A DNA stretch of 2,313 nt, from the NCBI RefSeq assembly GCF_024223415.1, contig NZ_CP100508.1. One strand, given 5' to 3'. A model generated the notes under the pieces. The model ran no database searches, was not told the DNA's origin, and was given only the letters and a program-made list of their open reading frames with translations. The position numbers and the translations under genes are program-made. Below are positions 1 through 2,313 of this stretch, piece after piece. Each line of letters opens with the position of its first letter. Position 1 is the first letter of the stretch. The DNA comes from Escherichia coli (lineage in GTDB: Bacteria; Pseudomonadota; Gammaproteobacteria; Enterobacterales; Enterobacteriaceae).

Positions 1-81
1 ACATCGACGGTCTATGACCACCCACCAACCGAGTAGCTGCCCATCCCGTGCAAATGGGCTTTGCAGGGGGCTGGCGCGGTT

Positions 82-139
82 CCTGGCGACCTGAAAGCCC
101 CTAGTTAGGGGTATCGGCGCGCCTGGCCTCCTGAAACCC
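82..139. repeat. Imperfect direct repeat in the GC-rich left flank
   Basis: CCTGGCGACCTGAAAGCCC (82-100) and CCTGGCCTCCTGAAACCC (122-139) are about 15/18 identical with one indel, 40 bp apart. Short hairpins lie nearby: CCCCT-AGTT-AGGGG (98-111) and ATGCCC-TGAC-GGGCAT (165-180). All three forward frames hit stop codons within the first 100 bp. Confidence 0.3.
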
Positions 140-491
140 TCTGTAAGCGTTTTTCGCGCCTTCCATGCCCTGACGGGCATTTAGACCCCGTTTCGTGCGT
201 CTGGGAGGCTCTGAGCGCGTTTAACAGATGACCAGCGACTCGATCGCCTGAGATCAAATCGGGATCATCAACGATATGCGAGAGGTGGCACCGCTCGCCG
301 CAGCCCCAGCGACCGAGCCGCCAGGCTCGCGAGTGGGCGAGGAAGCGGAAGAGAACCGGAAGCTACATTGAGCACGCACGCTCAATATTAAAATTGTCAC
401 TTCGTAAATAGAGATTATGCCTCGTGCTTGTGGATACATTTAAAAATATAAGATATCCGAATTAGGCTACATACGGGCTGATCGCCAATGT

Positions 492-557
492 TGTAACGTG
501 TAGAAGATACACCTGTAACGTGTACAGGATACACCTGTAACGTGTGGGCGGTATTCG
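492..557. repeat. Iteron array: 22-bp direct repeats, two near-identical units plus one degenerate unit
   Basis: Unit 1 at 492-513 TGTAACGTGTAGAAGATACACC and unit 2 at 514-535 TGTAACGTGTACAGGATACACC are head-to-tail and 20/22 identical. Unit 3 at 536-557 TGTAACGTGTGGGCGGTATTCG keeps only the first 10 bp. The array ends about 80 bp upstream of the rep start codon. Confidence 0.8.
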
Positions 558-568
558 CGTAATCTATA

Positions 569-629
569 TTGAGTGACATTTTGTTTTTTGGGCATTATAT
601 TGTTTGTCACCTTTATAAAGTGACAAAGG
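569..629 (+). promoter_or_regulatory. Candidate rep promoter, operator-like inverted repeat and RBS
   Basis: Candidate -35 GTGACA at 573-578, 17-nt spacer, -10 TATATT at 596-601 (alternative: TTGAGT 569-574 with CATTAT 593-598). Perfect 8-bp inverted repeat TTTGTCAC (603-610) / GTGACAAA (620-627) with a 9-nt spacer, placed at the predicted transcript start and abutting the Shine-Dalgarno AAAGG (625-629). No transcription data; positions are from consensus matching only. Confidence 0.35.
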
Positions 630-636
630 CGATAAA

Positions 637-1134
637 ATGAACATTACTGAAAGAACGGATAGCAAGAAAAAAGTTTTAAGACAAAATATTACTGAGGTTA
701 TAGATAGAGAAACTGGAAACGTAACACAAGAAATAACCGATATAACAGTTCAATTTCCACAAGAACCTGCGTATGTGAAAATTTATATTGATAATTTATG
801 TGCTGTCACAAAAGCACCTGATTCTCTAAAAGATGTTTTATTTTTAATTCTTAGGAAATTGGATTATGACGGATATATTGCATTATCAACTAGATACCGT
901 AAGGAGATCTGTAAATTATTGGGAATAAAAGACGGAACATTACGTAACAGATTGTATTCATTATCAAAAATGGGGATTATTGCTAGTTGTGGCGGTAATG
1001 AATATCAGGCAAACCCTAATTTATTTGCTCGTGGTGAATGGAAAAAAATAATTGAACAGCGTCGCGAGTTTGAAATGAGAATTAAATATTCACCTAACGG
1101 TGAAACTATTATAACAACCGAAGAAATAAAATAA
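637..1134 (+). CDS. Putative plasmid replication initiator, small single winged-helix protein, RepL-like (165 aa)
   Basis: Intact ATG(637)..TAA(1132-1134) ORF from the six-frame track. AAAGG Shine-Dalgarno at 625-629, 7 nt before the ATG. Central segment DVLFLILRKLDYDGYIALSTRYRKEICKLLGIKDGTLRNRLYSLSKMGII reads as a winged helix-turn-helix. Overall size and layout (YVKIYI hydrophobic block, HTH, C-terminal NPNLFARGEWKK) resemble the RepL family (Pfam PF05732) as I recall it; this is from memory, not a search. Lies directly downstream of 22-bp tandem iterons. AT-rich codon usage matches the surrounding module. Confidence 0.7.
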   Translation: MNITERTDSKKKVLRQNITEVIDRETGNVTQEITDITVQFPQEPAYVKIYIDNLCAVTKAPDSLKDVLFLILRKLDYDGYIALSTRYRKEICKLLGIKDGTLRNRLYSLSKMGIIASCGGNEYQANPNLFARGEWKKIIEQRREFEMRIKYSPNGETIITTEEIK

Positions 1135-1143
1135 TGCGCACCT

Positions 1144-1173
1144 AAATAAGGTCTTTTTAAAAAGACCTTATTT
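1144..1173. terminator. Candidate bidirectional intrinsic terminator between convergent rep and RHH genes (perfect 30-bp palindrome)
   Basis: AAATAAGGTCTTTTT (1144-1158) is the exact reverse complement of AAAAAGACCTTATTT (1159-1173). It starts 10 bp after the rep stop codon and overlaps the RHH gene stop codon (1168-1170). The hairpin is AU-rich with a weak U-tract, so termination efficiency is uncertain. Confidence 0.5.
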
Positions 1174-1593
1174 GAATAAATCCGAACCTGGATATTTATT
1201 TTTATGTAGCCTTTTTATTATTTTTATTTCATCCTTTATTAAATCCATTTCATTATATATATCAGAAATTCGCTTCGTTACTATTTTCATTTCATCGCAA
1301 AGTAAAATTATTTTATGCATCACCTCGAGGTACTCTTTATCCTTCGGCCGCTTTCCCTTATCAAATAATTTTTTCTGCATCCGACCAAGTCGGATTAATT
1401 CATATAAATACCTGGAAGGTACGCGCTGTTTTATTTCATTATTTAAACTTGCCGTCCTGATATATTCTGAAATTGTCAGTCCTTCGTTCTTCGCTCGCCG
1501 TCTGATTTCGCTTGCAAGTCTGTTATTTACTCTAAGGGTGATAACCTTAGTTCTCTGCCGTACTTCTGAACCACTACGTTTATTTTTAGCCAT
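1168..1593 (-). CDS. Ribbon-helix-helix domain protein, MobC/MbeC-like relaxosome accessory protein or CopG-like plasmid regulator (141 aa from ATG at 1593; the track ORF 1168..1692 uses an upstream GTG)
   Basis: Minus-strand ORF ending in TAA (complement of 1168-1170). N-terminal KVITLRVNNRLASEIRRRAKNEGLTISEYIRTASLN matches the RHH pattern (beta-strand, helix, G, helix with S.SEYIR) typical of MobC/MbeC/CopG proteins. C-terminal half is K/E-rich and helical. Start at ATG 1593 preferred: GGAGAG Shine-Dalgarno lies 8 nt upstream on the minus strand (complement of 1602-1607), whereas the 33-codon extension to GTG 1692 is GC-richer than the gene body and has no properly spaced RBS. Confidence 0.65.
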   Translation of the reverse strand: MAKNKRSGSEVRQRTKVITLRVNNRLASEIRRRAKNEGLTISEYIRTASLNNEIKQRVPSRYLYELIRLGRMQKKLFDKGKRPKDKEYLEVMHKIILLCDEMKIVTKRISDIYNEMDLIKDEIKIIKRLHKNKYPGSDLFK

Positions 1594-1690: not shown

Positions 1691-2160
1691 ACATCCTATC
1701 CCATTTTCCGCTGCAACTTTTCAACGAAAATAAAATACCGCGTCGTAACCTAGTATTTCTGATACAAAAAAATGATGCTTCATTCAATATTATTTATACA
1801 GATTTTAAAAATTATTGATTGTTATTTAATAAATAACACCGAATTAATTGATGTCTTTGTTGTCTGTCGTTTGTAGATTATTAGAGGAATAAAGATTAGA
1901 TCTTCTTGGTTATATAATCCATTGCCTGTTGGTAATGCGGGATTCGTCCAGAGAGCAGGAGGCAAAAGAGCAAGATGGTAGCATATGCATAAAATATAAC
2001 TATGTGAGTTATTGATATCGCGTTTATATATTAAAAATATAACTTAACGTCGCTCCTAATCTTTATTTCATCCTGGCAATGGGAGCATTAATCCCCGTGC
2101 AGTGCTCCGCCAGCTGCTGACAACCTCGACATATAACCATCGATACGATAGAACATCAGG

Positions 2161-2300
2161 GCGCGTTTCCGGCAAGAACTAACCATGGGGATGGTTTGCG
2201 TGCCAACGAACGCCGGAAACGCGCTTCAAACCTACCGAGTCGCCACGGTTCCGGCAGCGCCTTGAGCGCAACCGGAAACCGTCTGGGGAGAACCCCAGAC
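2161..2300. repeat. GC-rich cluster of three hairpin-forming inverted repeats, function unknown
   Basis: Hairpin 1: perfect 13-bp inverted repeat GCGCGTTTCCGGC (2161-2173) / GCCGGAAACGCGC (2212-2224), with a nested hairpin AACCAT-GGGG-ATGGTT (2181-2196) in the 38-nt spacer. Hairpin 2: imperfect inverted repeat CGGTTCCGGCAGCGC / GCGCAACCGGAAACCG (2246-2281). Hairpin 3: 8-bp stem GTCTGGGG / CCCCAGAC with loop AGAA (2281-2300). The motif TTCCGG/CCGGAA recurs four times. None is followed by a T-tract. Confidence 0.4.
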
Positions 2301-2313
2301 CCCCACCGCTGCA

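What the first reader, a model, noticed from the sequence alone, without database searches (positions are those of the whole stretch)
637..1134. Divergent RepL-like protein assigned only at motif level
The assignment rests on length, the winged-HTH segment and context. The N-terminal 50 residues (MNITERTDSKKKVLRQNITEVIDRETGNVTQEITDITVQFPQ) are polar and low-complexity and may be a poorly conserved extension. The protein may be a distant family member and needs a sensitive search.
Basis: inference. Interest (0 to 1): 0.4.

Follow-up and report, generated by a model that had tools for sequence, protein, structure and literature searches.

The report
RepL plasmid initiator with iteron origin
The gene is an ordinary, already-annotated member of the RepL family of small plasmid replication proteins, sitting beside its own repeat-containing origin on a 2.3-kb cryptic E. 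coli plasmid; how RepL proteins start replication is still not settled.

Summary
The ORF at 637-1134 (+, 165 aa) is real. The window is a complete 2,313-bp cryptic E. coli plasmid, and RefSeq already names this protein "replication/maintenance protein RepL". The query alone reaches Bacillus RepL (BLASTP E=6e-20, residues 11-160). The family profile matches archetypal pSN2 RepL at 97% probability over residues 14-135. 20 of 24 relatives hit Pfam RepL. The "low-complexity N-terminal extension" is a conserved, confidently modelled beta-hairpin (TGE motif, G27) shared with pSN2 RepL. The fold is one winged helix flanked by N- and C-terminal hairpins; no nuclease fold was found. Upstream lies a conserved origin: a 55-bp conserved block, three 22-bp iterons (492-557), a promoter, and a palindromic operator (603-627). 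The operator half-sites track the iteron hexamer across five related plasmids, and the recognition helix is identical in those five. I infer that RepL binds the iterons to fire the origin and binds the operator to repress itself. Rolling-circle versus theta replication cannot be decided here. A separate 552-bp GC-rich module, shared with ~1.5-kb Col(MG828) plasmids, remains unexplained. Low novelty.

The parts
637..1134 (+). repL coding sequence (165 aa plus stop): N-terminal beta-hairpin (aa 15-37), EPxYVKxYxxD motif (aa 43-53), winged HTH (aa 51-125; recognition helix 99-111, wing 115-125), NPxxFARGxW motif (aa 126-135), helix 135-142, C-terminal beta-hairpin (aa 145-163)
   Evidence: ORF; RefSeq annotation; Pfam RepL; hhalign to pSN2 RepL; BLASTP to B. 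cereus RepL; AF2 model pLDDT 89.3; conserved positions
492..557 (+). Three tandem 22-bp iteron-like direct repeats (492-513, 514-535, 536-557), each starting TGTAACGTGT. Inferred RepL binding sites of the origin.
   Evidence: the repeat finder. The same 22-bp period at the same distance from the ATG (-145, -123, -101) occurs in four relatives with Reps 59-81% identical. 21/22-bp repeats with unrelated sequence lie upstream of repL in Klebsiella/Shigella and B. cereus plasmids.
437..491 (+). Conserved A+T-rich block immediately upstream of the iterons (TTTAAAAATATAAGAT..GAATTAGGCTACATACGGGC). Candidate unwinding or nick region, analogous in position to the 'CR' of pHW126-like origins.
   Evidence: Alignment of five upstream regions, invariant columns. 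The analogy to the CR described in PMC6854812 and bioRxiv 10.1101/2022.12.05.519187 is inference only.
573..601 (+). Sigma-70-like repL promoter: -35 GTGACA (573-578), 17-nt spacer, -10 TATATT (596-601)
   Evidence: Promoter scan, 10 of 12 matches. The -35 GGTGACA is conserved in four of five relatives. Function not tested.
603..627 (.). 25-bp palindrome TTTGTCACCTTTATAAAGTGACAAA between the -10 element and the RBS. Inferred RepL operator for autorepression; its half-sites TGTCAC/GTGACA are a 1-nt variant of the iteron hexamer TGTAAC.
   Evidence: Inverted repeat I25. TGTCAC occurs 5 times vs 0.51 expected, 0 of 200 shuffles reach 5. Half-sites track the iteron hexamer in relatives: L013 TGTACC in both, L012 TGTAAC/GTTACA.
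395..400 (+). Distal TGTCAC half-site within AAAATTGTCACTTCGT, also conserved in relative L010
1144..1173 (.). Perfect 30-bp palindrome (AAATAAGGTCTTTTT/AAAAAGACCTTATTT) between the convergent repL and mobA genes. Probable bidirectional terminator.
   Evidence: Inverted repeat I6, 15-nt arms, 100% complementary, no spacer. Function inferred.
2143..2313 (.). First part of a 552-bp GC-rich (~60% GC) non-coding module that continues across the circular junction
   Evidence: 83-88% identical to ~1.5-kb Col(MG828) plasmids; composition; single-strand fold z about -4 to -5 against mononucleotide shuffles
1..381 (.). Second part of the GC-rich module. It ends where the A+T-rich origin region begins. 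Function unknown; ssi/sso-like lagging-strand or stability element suspected.
   Evidence: 868 plasmid records match 1-380. Absent from other RepL plasmids L002-L007 and L011-L013. Col(MG828) typing is shared with a plasmid that has only this module in common.

Best explanation
The ORF encodes a RepL-family (Pfam PF05732, pSN2-type) plasmid replication initiator. It is the only replication protein of a 2,313-bp cryptic enterobacterial plasmid. The protein is a single winged-helix DNA binder clamped by an N-terminal and a C-terminal beta-hairpin.

Inferred mechanism: RepL recognises a TGTA(A/C)C-type hexamer through its recognition helix (IKDGTLRNRL). It binds the three 22-bp iterons at 492-557, which are spaced two helical turns apart and so lie on one face of the DNA, next to a conserved A+T-rich block at 437-491, and there starts replication. 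A RepL dimer also binds the palindrome at 603-627, which lies between the -10 element and the ribosome-binding site, and so represses its own promoter and sets copy number.

What is shown: family membership, the fold, and the conserved cis-architecture with operator half-sites that track the iteron hexamer. What is inferred: the binding events, autorepression and origin function. Whether initiation proceeds by nicking (rolling circle, the traditional classification of RepL plasmids) or by melting (theta) is not decidable from sequence.
For: Family membership:
- Identical protein named RepL in RefSeq.
- Pfam RepL 21.7 bits against a cutoff of 20.3, residues 10-138; 20 of 24 relatives hit RepL, best E=3.8e-09.
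- tblastn with the query alone hits Bacillus and Priestia RepL genes at 1e-11 to 1e-15 over about 80-90% of its length.
- BLASTP to B. cereus RepL E=6e-20 over residues 11-160.
- hhalign to pSN2 RepL 97% probability, E=1.2e-10, 117 columns.

Fold:
- AF2 pLDDT 89.3, pTM 0.74: one wHTH plus two hairpins.
- crAss-like phage 'replication protein' models align over 134-144 columns.

Cis elements:
- 3 x 22-bp repeats at fixed positions -145, -123 and -101 in five plasmids.
- 21/22-bp repeats upstream of repL in unrelated RepL plasmids from Klebsiella/Shigella and B. cereus, the latter with a perfect 38-bp palindrome just before repL.
- TGTCAC enriched 10-fold and clustered upstream of the gene.
- Operator half-sites track the iteron hexamer.
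- The recognition helix is identical in the five plasmids with TGTA(A/C)C iterons and different in plasmids with other iterons.

Other support:
- Complete RepL plasmids exist whose only other annotated genes are a MobV relaxase and small ORFs, for example L002 and L006.
- In the distantly related pHW126, pIGRK and pIGMS31 Reps, iteron binding, origin trans-activation and autorepression were shown experimentally (PMC6854812; bioRxiv 10.1101/2022.12.05.519187).
Against: - No experiment on this plasmid or this RepL subgroup was found.
- The query's own Pfam score is only 1.4 bits above threshold.
- The pSN2 sequence used was recovered by OCR from a supplementary PDF and may contain errors.
- The window's operator half-site (TGTCAC) differs by one base from its iteron hexamer (TGTAAC), so recognition of both by one protein is plausible but unproven.
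- Co-variation rests on five plasmids and three hexamer types.
- A second conserved element, the GC-rich module, carries the Col(MG828) typing signal and could contribute to or provide origin function.
- RepL plasmids are traditionally classed as rolling-circle (PMC5703833), and iterons are atypical for that mode.
Confidence: 0.75

Rival explanations
1. RepL is a classical rolling-circle initiator. It nicks one strand at a double-strand origin in or beside the conserved block and iterons, leading-strand synthesis displaces a single strand, and the GC-rich structured module acts as the single-strand origin. The repeats serve only as the binding part of the dso.
For: - The pSN2/RepL family is classed with RCR plasmids, and a dso and ssoA are reported for pSN2 (PMC5703833).
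- Relaxase activity and origin-deletion behaviour are reported for pHW126 Rep (PMC2831885), and nicking plus RC intermediates for pIGMS31 RepM.
- K48 and Y50 are invariant in 132 sequences, with E43 and D53 nearly so, and could form a Tyr/metal active site.
- The GC-rich module folds more stably than shuffles as single-stranded DNA (z about -4 to -5) and lies directly upstream of the origin.
- The plasmid is very small.
Against: - There is no HUH or Rep_trans Pfam hit and no nuclease fold. The model is a single winged helix.
- The Tyr aligned with Y50 is Val in pOM1 and pONE430 in the published alignment.
- pHW126-type Reps are not significantly related at the depth tested, so their biochemistry may not transfer.
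- RepM also nicked pUC18 non-specifically, and theta intermediates were seen too.
- The GC-rich module is absent from close relatives that have the same iteron-repL cassette.
- repL and mobA are convergent.
Confidence: 0.35
2. RepL here is mainly a transcriptional regulator or copy-control and partition-like DNA binder. The plasmid actually replicates from the GC-rich Col(MG828) module using host functions only, as in RNA-primed ColE1-type replication.
For: - The module is the only sequence shared with about 850 small Col(MG828)-typed plasmids, and the typing label follows it.
- The module is highly structured.
- Pfam HrcA_DNA-bdg scores 23 bits on residues 89-121.
Against: - No RNAI/RNAII or any other Rfam family was found in the window at E<=1, apart from one chance-level snoRNA hit.
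- Both module-bearing 1.5-kb plasmids examined (L008, L009) also carry a small wHTH protein; L009 has a pair of 23-bp repeats upstream of it and L008 a 20-bp-arm palindrome.
- Complete RepL plasmids lack the module entirely (L002, L005, L006).
- Close relatives L011-L013 keep the iteron-operator-repL cassette without the module.
- The HTH-family hits cover only about 33 residues and 1-3 of 24 members.
Confidence: 0.08

Closest known systems
RepL of Staphylococcus pSN2-family plasmids (pSN2, pIM13, pE12; Pfam PF05732)
   Same: - Size: about 158 versus 165 aa.
- Collinear homology over about 120 residues (97% hhalign probability). It covers the N-terminal D-x-E-(S/T)-G-E hairpin, the (F/Y)VKxY motif, the wHTH and the NP..(R/K)G motif after the wing.
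- Carried on very small, mostly cryptic plasmids.
   Different: - Gram-negative host.
- Only about 21% identity.
- The window protein has an extra conserved C-terminal beta-hairpin region (aa 145-163) that was not aligned to pSN2.
- The plasmid carries a mobilisation accessory gene, whereas pSN2-family plasmids are said to carry none (PMC5703833).
RepL of Bacillus/Priestia small plasmids (e.g. B. cereus pMRY14-0074_7, WP_001182216.1)
   Same: - 31% identity over residues 11-160, E=6e-20.
- Same layout: 21/22-bp tandem repeats, then a palindrome, then repL.
   Different: - Repeat and palindrome sequences are unrelated.
- The recognition helix differs.
- The partner mobilisation gene is a MobV relaxase.
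pHW126-like plasmid Reps (pHW126 Rep, pIGRK RepR/RepR', pIGMS31 RepM)
   Same: - Gammaproteobacterial small cryptic plasmids with low-GC rep modules.
- REP module order: accessory/ssi element, conserved region, iteron-like repeats of 20 bp plus a 2-bp spacer (22-bp period), inverted repeats, then rep.
- wHTH Rep proteins that bind iterons and autoregulate, reported as distantly related to RepL.
   Different: - Sequence relationship was not significant here (hhalign probability 1.3%; 7-11 bits).
- Those Reps are longer (201-248 aa), with different N-termini and coiled-coil tails.
- pIGRK makes a second in-frame product from an internal GTG. Here the corresponding Val47 GTG is not conserved (Ile in several relatives).
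Iteron-type theta initiators (Rep_3 family: pPS10 RepA, pSC101 RepA, F RepE, R6K pi)
   Same: - Works-like resemblance: tandem 22-bp iterons next to an A+T-rich block, plus an inverted partial iteron over the rep promoter for autorepression.
   Different: - Those proteins have two winged-helix domains; RepL has one.
- No Rep_3 Pfam hit.
- The only DnaA-box-like site is at chance level and is not conserved.

Membership tests
RepL (Pfam PF05732; pSN2-type plasmid initiators) | Scores at or above the Pfam gathering threshold over most of the domain | tested here: met
   21.7 bits vs 20.3; residues 10-138 to profile 4-128 of 164. 20 of 24 family members hit, best E=3.8e-09.
RepL (Pfam PF05732; pSN2-type plasmid initiators) | Collinear homology to the archetype pSN2 RepL and to annotated Firmicute RepL proteins | tested here: met
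   hhalign 97% probability, E=1.2e-10, 117 columns (pSN2 sequence from OCR of a supplementary file). BLASTP to B. cereus RepL E=6e-20. tblastn hits to Bacillus and Priestia RepL.
RepL (Pfam PF05732; pSN2-type plasmid initiators) | Small (~18 kDa) protein with a single HTH/winged-helix DNA-binding domain | tested here: met
RepL (Pfam PF05732; pSN2-type plasmid initiators) | Encoded on a small plasmid as its replication gene, next to the origin | tested here: met
   Whole 2,313-bp circular plasmid with two genes. Conserved repeat/operator region directly upstream.
RepL (Pfam PF05732; pSN2-type plasmid initiators) | Required in trans for replication of the cognate origin | not testable with these tools
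   Needs a two-plasmid complementation experiment.
Rolling-circle initiators (HUH Rep_1/Rep_2, Rep_trans) | HUH metal-binding motif or Rep_trans fold with a catalytic tyrosine | tested here: not met
Rolling-circle initiators (HUH Rep_1/Rep_2, Rep_trans) | Site-specific nicking and single-stranded replication intermediates | not testable with these tools
   Requires nicking assays, ssDNA Southern blots or 2D gels.
pHW126-like plasmid family | Rep protein significantly similar to pHW126, pIGRK or pIGMS31 Rep | tested here: not met
   hmmsearch 7-11 bits. hhalign probability 1.3% for pHW126 Rep. Sequences were OCR-derived, so weak similarity could be under-estimated.
pHW126-like plasmid family | REP module: ssi, conserved region, about four iterons of 22-bp period, inverted repeats, then rep | tested here: inconclusive
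   The same order and period are seen (three iterons, conserved block, palindrome). Sequence identity of the CR and ssi to the pHW126 family could not be checked because the reference plasmid DNA is not in the collections.
Iteron-type theta initiators (Rep_3 / RepA-RepE-pi) | Two tandem winged-helix domains (WH1 and WH2); Rep_3 Pfam domain | tested here: not met
   Single WH in the model. No Rep_3 hit.
Iteron-type theta initiators (Rep_3 / RepA-RepE-pi) | Tandem iterons plus an inverted partial iteron overlapping the rep promoter | tested here: met
Iteron-type theta initiators (Rep_3 / RepA-RepE-pi) | DnaA box(es) in the origin | tested here: inconclusive
   One site with one mismatch (429-437), expected by chance in 107 of 200 shuffles and not conserved in relatives.
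   The HrcA_DNA-bdg hit covers residues 89-121 only. HrcA, MarR and HTH_36 hits occur in 1-3 of 24 members, against 20 of 24 for RepL. Homologues lie on plasmids.

The most novel reading that the evidence does not exclude
RepL-type proteins, textbook 'rolling-circle' initiators, may actually be minimal single-winged-helix iteron binders. On this reading they work like theta-type Rep proteins: iterons for initiation and an inverted half-iteron operator for autorepression, possibly with a hybrid nick/melt mode. In enterobacteria such cassettes would be swapped against a common 552-bp structured GC-rich cis module, the Col(MG828) 'replicon', which serves different unrelated small wHTH initiators as a shared priming or stability element.
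Probability: 0.3. Interest if true: 0.55.

Novelty: already known. Interest (0 to 1): 0.22.

Why it matters
For annotation, nothing changes: the protein is a RepL and is already named so. There are three points of modest value.

1. The 'divergent, motif-level' label can be dropped, because the whole protein including its N-terminus is homologous to archetypal RepL.

2. RepL is one of the least understood plasmid initiator families. It has no solved structure and no defined active site, and its rolling-circle classification is largely historical. The conserved iteron, operator and recognition-helix correspondence found here gives concrete, testable binding sites for a Gram-negative RepL in a genetically easy host.

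3. The replicon label Col(MG828), widely used in E. coli genomics, appears to follow a non-coding GC-rich module and not the initiator gene. Plasmids with different initiators therefore receive the same replicon type.

Tried and rejected
- **pHW126-like membership.** The literature suggested it, but the Rep sequences recovered from Rozhon 2010 Additional file 2 score only 7-11 bits and hhalign gives 1.3% probability. Rejected as membership; kept as a functional analogy.
- **Fetching reference plasmids.** pHW126 (FN429030), pIGRK (AY543071) and pIGMS31 (AY543072) are not in the collections.
- **DnaA box in the origin.** One 8-of-9 match, at chance level and not conserved. Rejected as evidence for theta replication.
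- **ColE1-type RNA control.** An Rfam E-value scan of the whole window gave only a chance snoRNA hit.
- **Sequence search of PDB.** With the protein and with the profile, nothing was significant beyond HTH-local matches.
- **NCBIfam and PHROGs.** No family hit for the protein.
- **afdb50 fold search.** The library was unavailable.
- **P1 RepL relationship.** No P1-type phage appeared among the tblastn hits. Only plasmid-like prophages did (Sodalis phiSG1, Erwinia, Vibrio, Pseudoalteromonas).
- **Second in-frame product, as in pIGRK RepR'.** The only internal GTG candidate (Val47) is Ile in several relatives and Met111 is not conserved. No support.
- **ORFs crossing the circular junction.** A 104-aa Arg-rich ORF (minus strand, 180 to 2179) lies in the GC-rich module. 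The equivalent 'rep protein' annotation in NZ_CP019004.1 has no Pfam hit. I regard it as a composition artefact.
- **First AF2 run.** With 24 sequences the model was poor (pLDDT 67.5). It was superseded by the 132-sequence run.

Full report
**What the window is.** The 2,313-base window is a complete circular cryptic plasmid. PLSDB holds 18 records that cover at least 80% of it at 96-99.7% identity, most of them 2,310-2,313 bp long. They come from E. coli, E. fergusonii, Klebsiella pneumoniae and one Actinobacillus record. The best match, pPK8275-2.3kb (NZ_CP080170.1), has two annotated genes. One is 'replication/maintenance protein RepL' (WP_023156898.1), which corresponds exactly to window 637-1134. 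The other is 'plasmid mobilization protein MobA', which by the 385-bp coordinate offset corresponds to window 1168-1593 on the minus strand.

**Checking the observation.** The ORF is at 637-1134 on the + strand and encodes 165 aa with the quoted N-terminus. An AAAGG ribosome-binding site lies 7 nt upstream of the ATG. The gene is real and conserved. A word-indexed search found 28 clusters down to 44% identity, mostly on contigs of 1-8 kb. An exhaustive profile search of 1.84 billion representatives found 2,130 proteins at E<=1e-3 and 972 at E<=1e-10.

**Is the RepL assignment only at motif level? No.**
- The query's Pfam RepL score is marginal (21.7 bits against a 20.3 cutoff), but it spans residues 10-138 against profile positions 4-128 of 164.
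- 20 of 24 family members hit RepL independently, best E=3.8e-09. The competing HTH families (HrcA_DNA-bdg, HTH_36, MarR and others) cover only about 33 residues and appear in 1-3 members.
- tblastn with the query alone reaches annotated RepL genes of Bacillus and Priestia plasmids at 1e-11 to 1e-15 over about 80-90% of its length.
- BLASTP against the B. cereus protein gives E=6e-20 and 31% identity over residues 11-160.
- I recovered the archetypal pSN2 RepL sequence from the supplementary alignment of Rozhon et al. 2010 (PMC2831885; OCR text, so minor errors are possible). The 24-sequence profile aligns to it over profile positions 10-132 (28 bits). hhalign with the 132-sequence alignment gives 97% probability, E=1.2e-10, over query residues 14-135.

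**The N-terminus.** In fact G27 is invariant in the 24-sequence alignment and at least 90% conserved in the 132-sequence one. E43, P44, K48 and Y50 are among the most conserved positions in the family. The motif (I/V)D-x-E-(S/T)-G-E-(V/I), followed about 15 residues later by (F/Y)VKxY, is shared with pSN2 RepL ('LIDEESGEVIEV...NFVKAY'). With a 132-sequence alignment AlphaFold2 gives a confident model (pLDDT 89.3, pTM 0.74). In it residues 15-22 and 29-37 form a beta-hairpin; mean pLDDT of the 10-residue blocks covering residues 11-40 is 76, 91 and 85. Only about the first ten residues are variable.

**Fold.** The model has these elements:
- N-terminal beta-hairpin (15-37);
- the EPxYVKxYxxD linker;
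- a winged HTH (helices 51-57, 62-72, 85-95 and 99-111; wing 115-125);
- the NPxxFARGxW motif;
- helix 135-142;
- a C-terminal beta-hairpin (145-163).

**The origin next to the gene.** Upstream of repL are three tandem 22-bp repeats (492-513, 514-535, 536-557), each beginning TGTAACGTGT. There is also a promoter-like site, GTGACA-17 nt-TATATT, at 573-601, and a 25-bp palindrome, TTTGTCACCTTTATAAAGTGACAAA, at 603-627 between the -10 element and the RBS. The hexamer TGTCAC occurs five times in the plasmid against 0.51 expected (0 of 200 shuffles reach five), and four of the five lie in 395-625.

I fetched the contigs of four relatives whose Reps are 59-81% identical. All have 22-bp-period repeats starting at -145/-146, -123/-124 and -101/-102 from the ATG. 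All share a conserved ~55-bp A+T-rich block just upstream (window 437-491). Four of the five have a conserved GGTGACA -35 element, and all have an inverted repeat between about -41 and -15.

The inverted-repeat half-sites track each plasmid's iteron hexamer:
- L013: TGTACC in the iterons, and TGTACC...GGTACA in the operator.
- L012: TGTAAC in the iterons, and TGTAAT...GTTACA in the operator.
- Window, L010 and L011: TGTAAC in the iterons. The operator is TGTCAC...GTGACA in the window; in L010 and L011 the left half-site is degenerate (TGTCAT, TGTAAT).

The recognition-helix segment IKDGTLRNRL is identical in these five proteins. It differs in RepL proteins whose plasmids have unrelated repeats (L005, L006, L007). 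More distant RepL plasmids repeat the plan with different sequences. There are 4-5 x 22 bp in the Klebsiella/Shigella 2.4-kb plasmids. In B. cereus there are 4-6 x 21/22 bp plus a perfect 38-bp palindrome immediately before repL.

This is the logic of iteron plasmids: direct repeats for initiation and an inverted partial repeat over the promoter for autorepression. The binding itself is inferred, not shown.

**What is known about mechanism.** RepL (pfam05732) is listed with staphylococcal rolling-circle initiators. However, the review by Kwong et al. notes that the family is little studied, the protein is only ~18 kDa with an HTH, and no copy-control mechanism has been identified (PMC5703833).

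The pHW126-like plasmids of Gammaproteobacteria were described as distant relatives of RepL. Their origins are ordered ssi, conserved region, iteron-like repeats (20 bp plus a 2-bp spacer), inverted repeats, then rep. Their Reps bind the iterons and autoregulate. pHW126 Rep and pIGMS31 RepM relax supercoiled DNA, and pIGMS31 shows both rolling-circle and theta intermediates (PMC2831885, PMC6854812, bioRxiv 10.1101/2022.12.05.519187).

The window protein is not a member of that group by sequence (7-11 bits; hhalign probability 1.3%), so I use it only as a functional analogy. K48 and Y50 are invariant in 132 sequences and could be catalytic, but the aligned Tyr is Val in pOM1 and pONE430. Rolling circle versus theta therefore stays open.

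**A second element, and the rival it raises.** The plasmid is a mosaic. The repL/mobA part is about 30% GC, and a 552-bp stretch (2143-2313 plus 1-381) is about 60% GC. Window 1-380 matches 868 plasmid records, mostly ~1.5-kb E. coli and Klebsiella plasmids, at 83-88% identity. Those plasmids lack this repL but carry other small wHTH proteins. These have sub-threshold RepL similarity (15.8-17.7 bits). hhalign gives 71% probability over the recognition helix, wing and 'NP..KG' segment only.

A 1.5-kb plasmid that shares only the module with the window is also typed Col(MG828), so that label evidently follows the module. The module folds more stably than shuffled sequence as single-stranded DNA (z about -4 to -5 against mononucleotide shuffles). 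It has no Rfam match.

Could the module be the true origin and RepL a mere regulator? I consider this unlikely, for two reasons. Complete RepL plasmids lack the module (L002, L005, L006). Close relatives L011-L013 keep the iteron-operator-repL cassette without it. More probably it is a separable accessory cis element, such as a single-strand initiation or stability site like the 'ssi' of pHW126-type origins. This is not shown.

**Verdict.** The RepL interpretation is correct and already in the databases. Two qualifiers, 'only at motif level' and 'poorly conserved N-terminal extension', are wrong. Novelty is low. The useful by-products are a concrete, comparative definition of the origin and operator for this enterobacterial RepL subgroup, and the unexplained GC-rich module.

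Noticed in passing
window 2143-2313 + 1-381 (across the circular junction): A 552-bp, ~60% GC, non-coding and highly structured module is shared at 83-88% identity with about 850 small (~1.5-kb) Col(MG828)-typed plasmids that carry different small wHTH proteins. It is absent from other RepL plasmids. Its function is unknown (ssi/sso, stability site or RNA?). The Col(MG828) replicon label appears to follow this module and not the initiator gene.
   Followed up: partly
window 1168-1593 (-) and ~1619-1645: mobA encodes a NikA-like ribbon-helix-helix relaxosome accessory protein (Pfam NikA-like 2.2e-15; NCBIfam MobA 1.3e-27), but the plasmid has no relaxase gene. Upstream lies GGGGTGTCGGGGCTTGCCCTGACAGG, an imperfect inverted repeat that from memory resembles the ColE1 bom/oriT region. 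This looks like an orphan oriT plus accessory protein that depends on a relaxase in trans.
   Followed up: partly
window 1144-1173: A perfect 30-bp palindrome (15-nt arms, no spacer) lies exactly between the convergent repL and mobA stop codons. It is probably a bidirectional terminator. The terminator scan missed it because the stem is A+T-rich.
   Followed up: no
window 780-809 (-): A promoter-like site on the antisense strand inside repL (GTGACA-18 nt-TAAATT) has the fifth TGTCAC copy as its -35 element. It could drive a countertranscript across the repL 5' end, or be a further RepL site. Its conservation is confounded by the strongly conserved YIDDLC coding sequence.
   Followed up: no
window 492-557 vs L010 1282-1353 and L011 1356-1434: Only the third iteron of the window (TGTAACGTGTGGGCGGTATTCG) matches the repeat unit of relatives L010 and L011. 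Iterons 1 and 2 share a different 3' half (AGAAGATACACC / ACAGGATACACC). This suggests recent turnover or homogenisation of the repeat array while the 5' TGTAACGTGT core is kept.
   Followed up: partly
window ~1700-2080: An A+T-rich (~25-37% GC) stretch of about 380 bp between the mobA upstream region and the GC-rich module has no convincing ORF. It contains an exact 11-bp repeat, AAAATATAACT, at 1991-2001 and 2034-2044. Function unknown.
   Followed up: no
L008 (NZ_CP019004.1) 960-1514; window minus strand 180 to 2179: A CDS annotated 'rep protein' in a 1.6-kb plasmid lies on the GC-rich module and has no Pfam hit. The corresponding 104-aa Arg-rich ORF in the window crosses the circular junction. 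It is probably a spurious ORF produced by GC-rich non-coding DNA.
   Followed up: partly
L009 1229-1276; L008 548-588: In the 1.5-kb Col(MG828) plasmids the region upstream of their own wHTH gene carries two 23-bp near-palindromic units 25 bp apart (GTTGTCGCATCCAGGATGCGACA; L009), or a 41-bp palindrome of two perfectly complementary 20-nt arms around one central base (L008). These are probably the binding sites of those unrelated small wHTH proteins.
   Followed up: no
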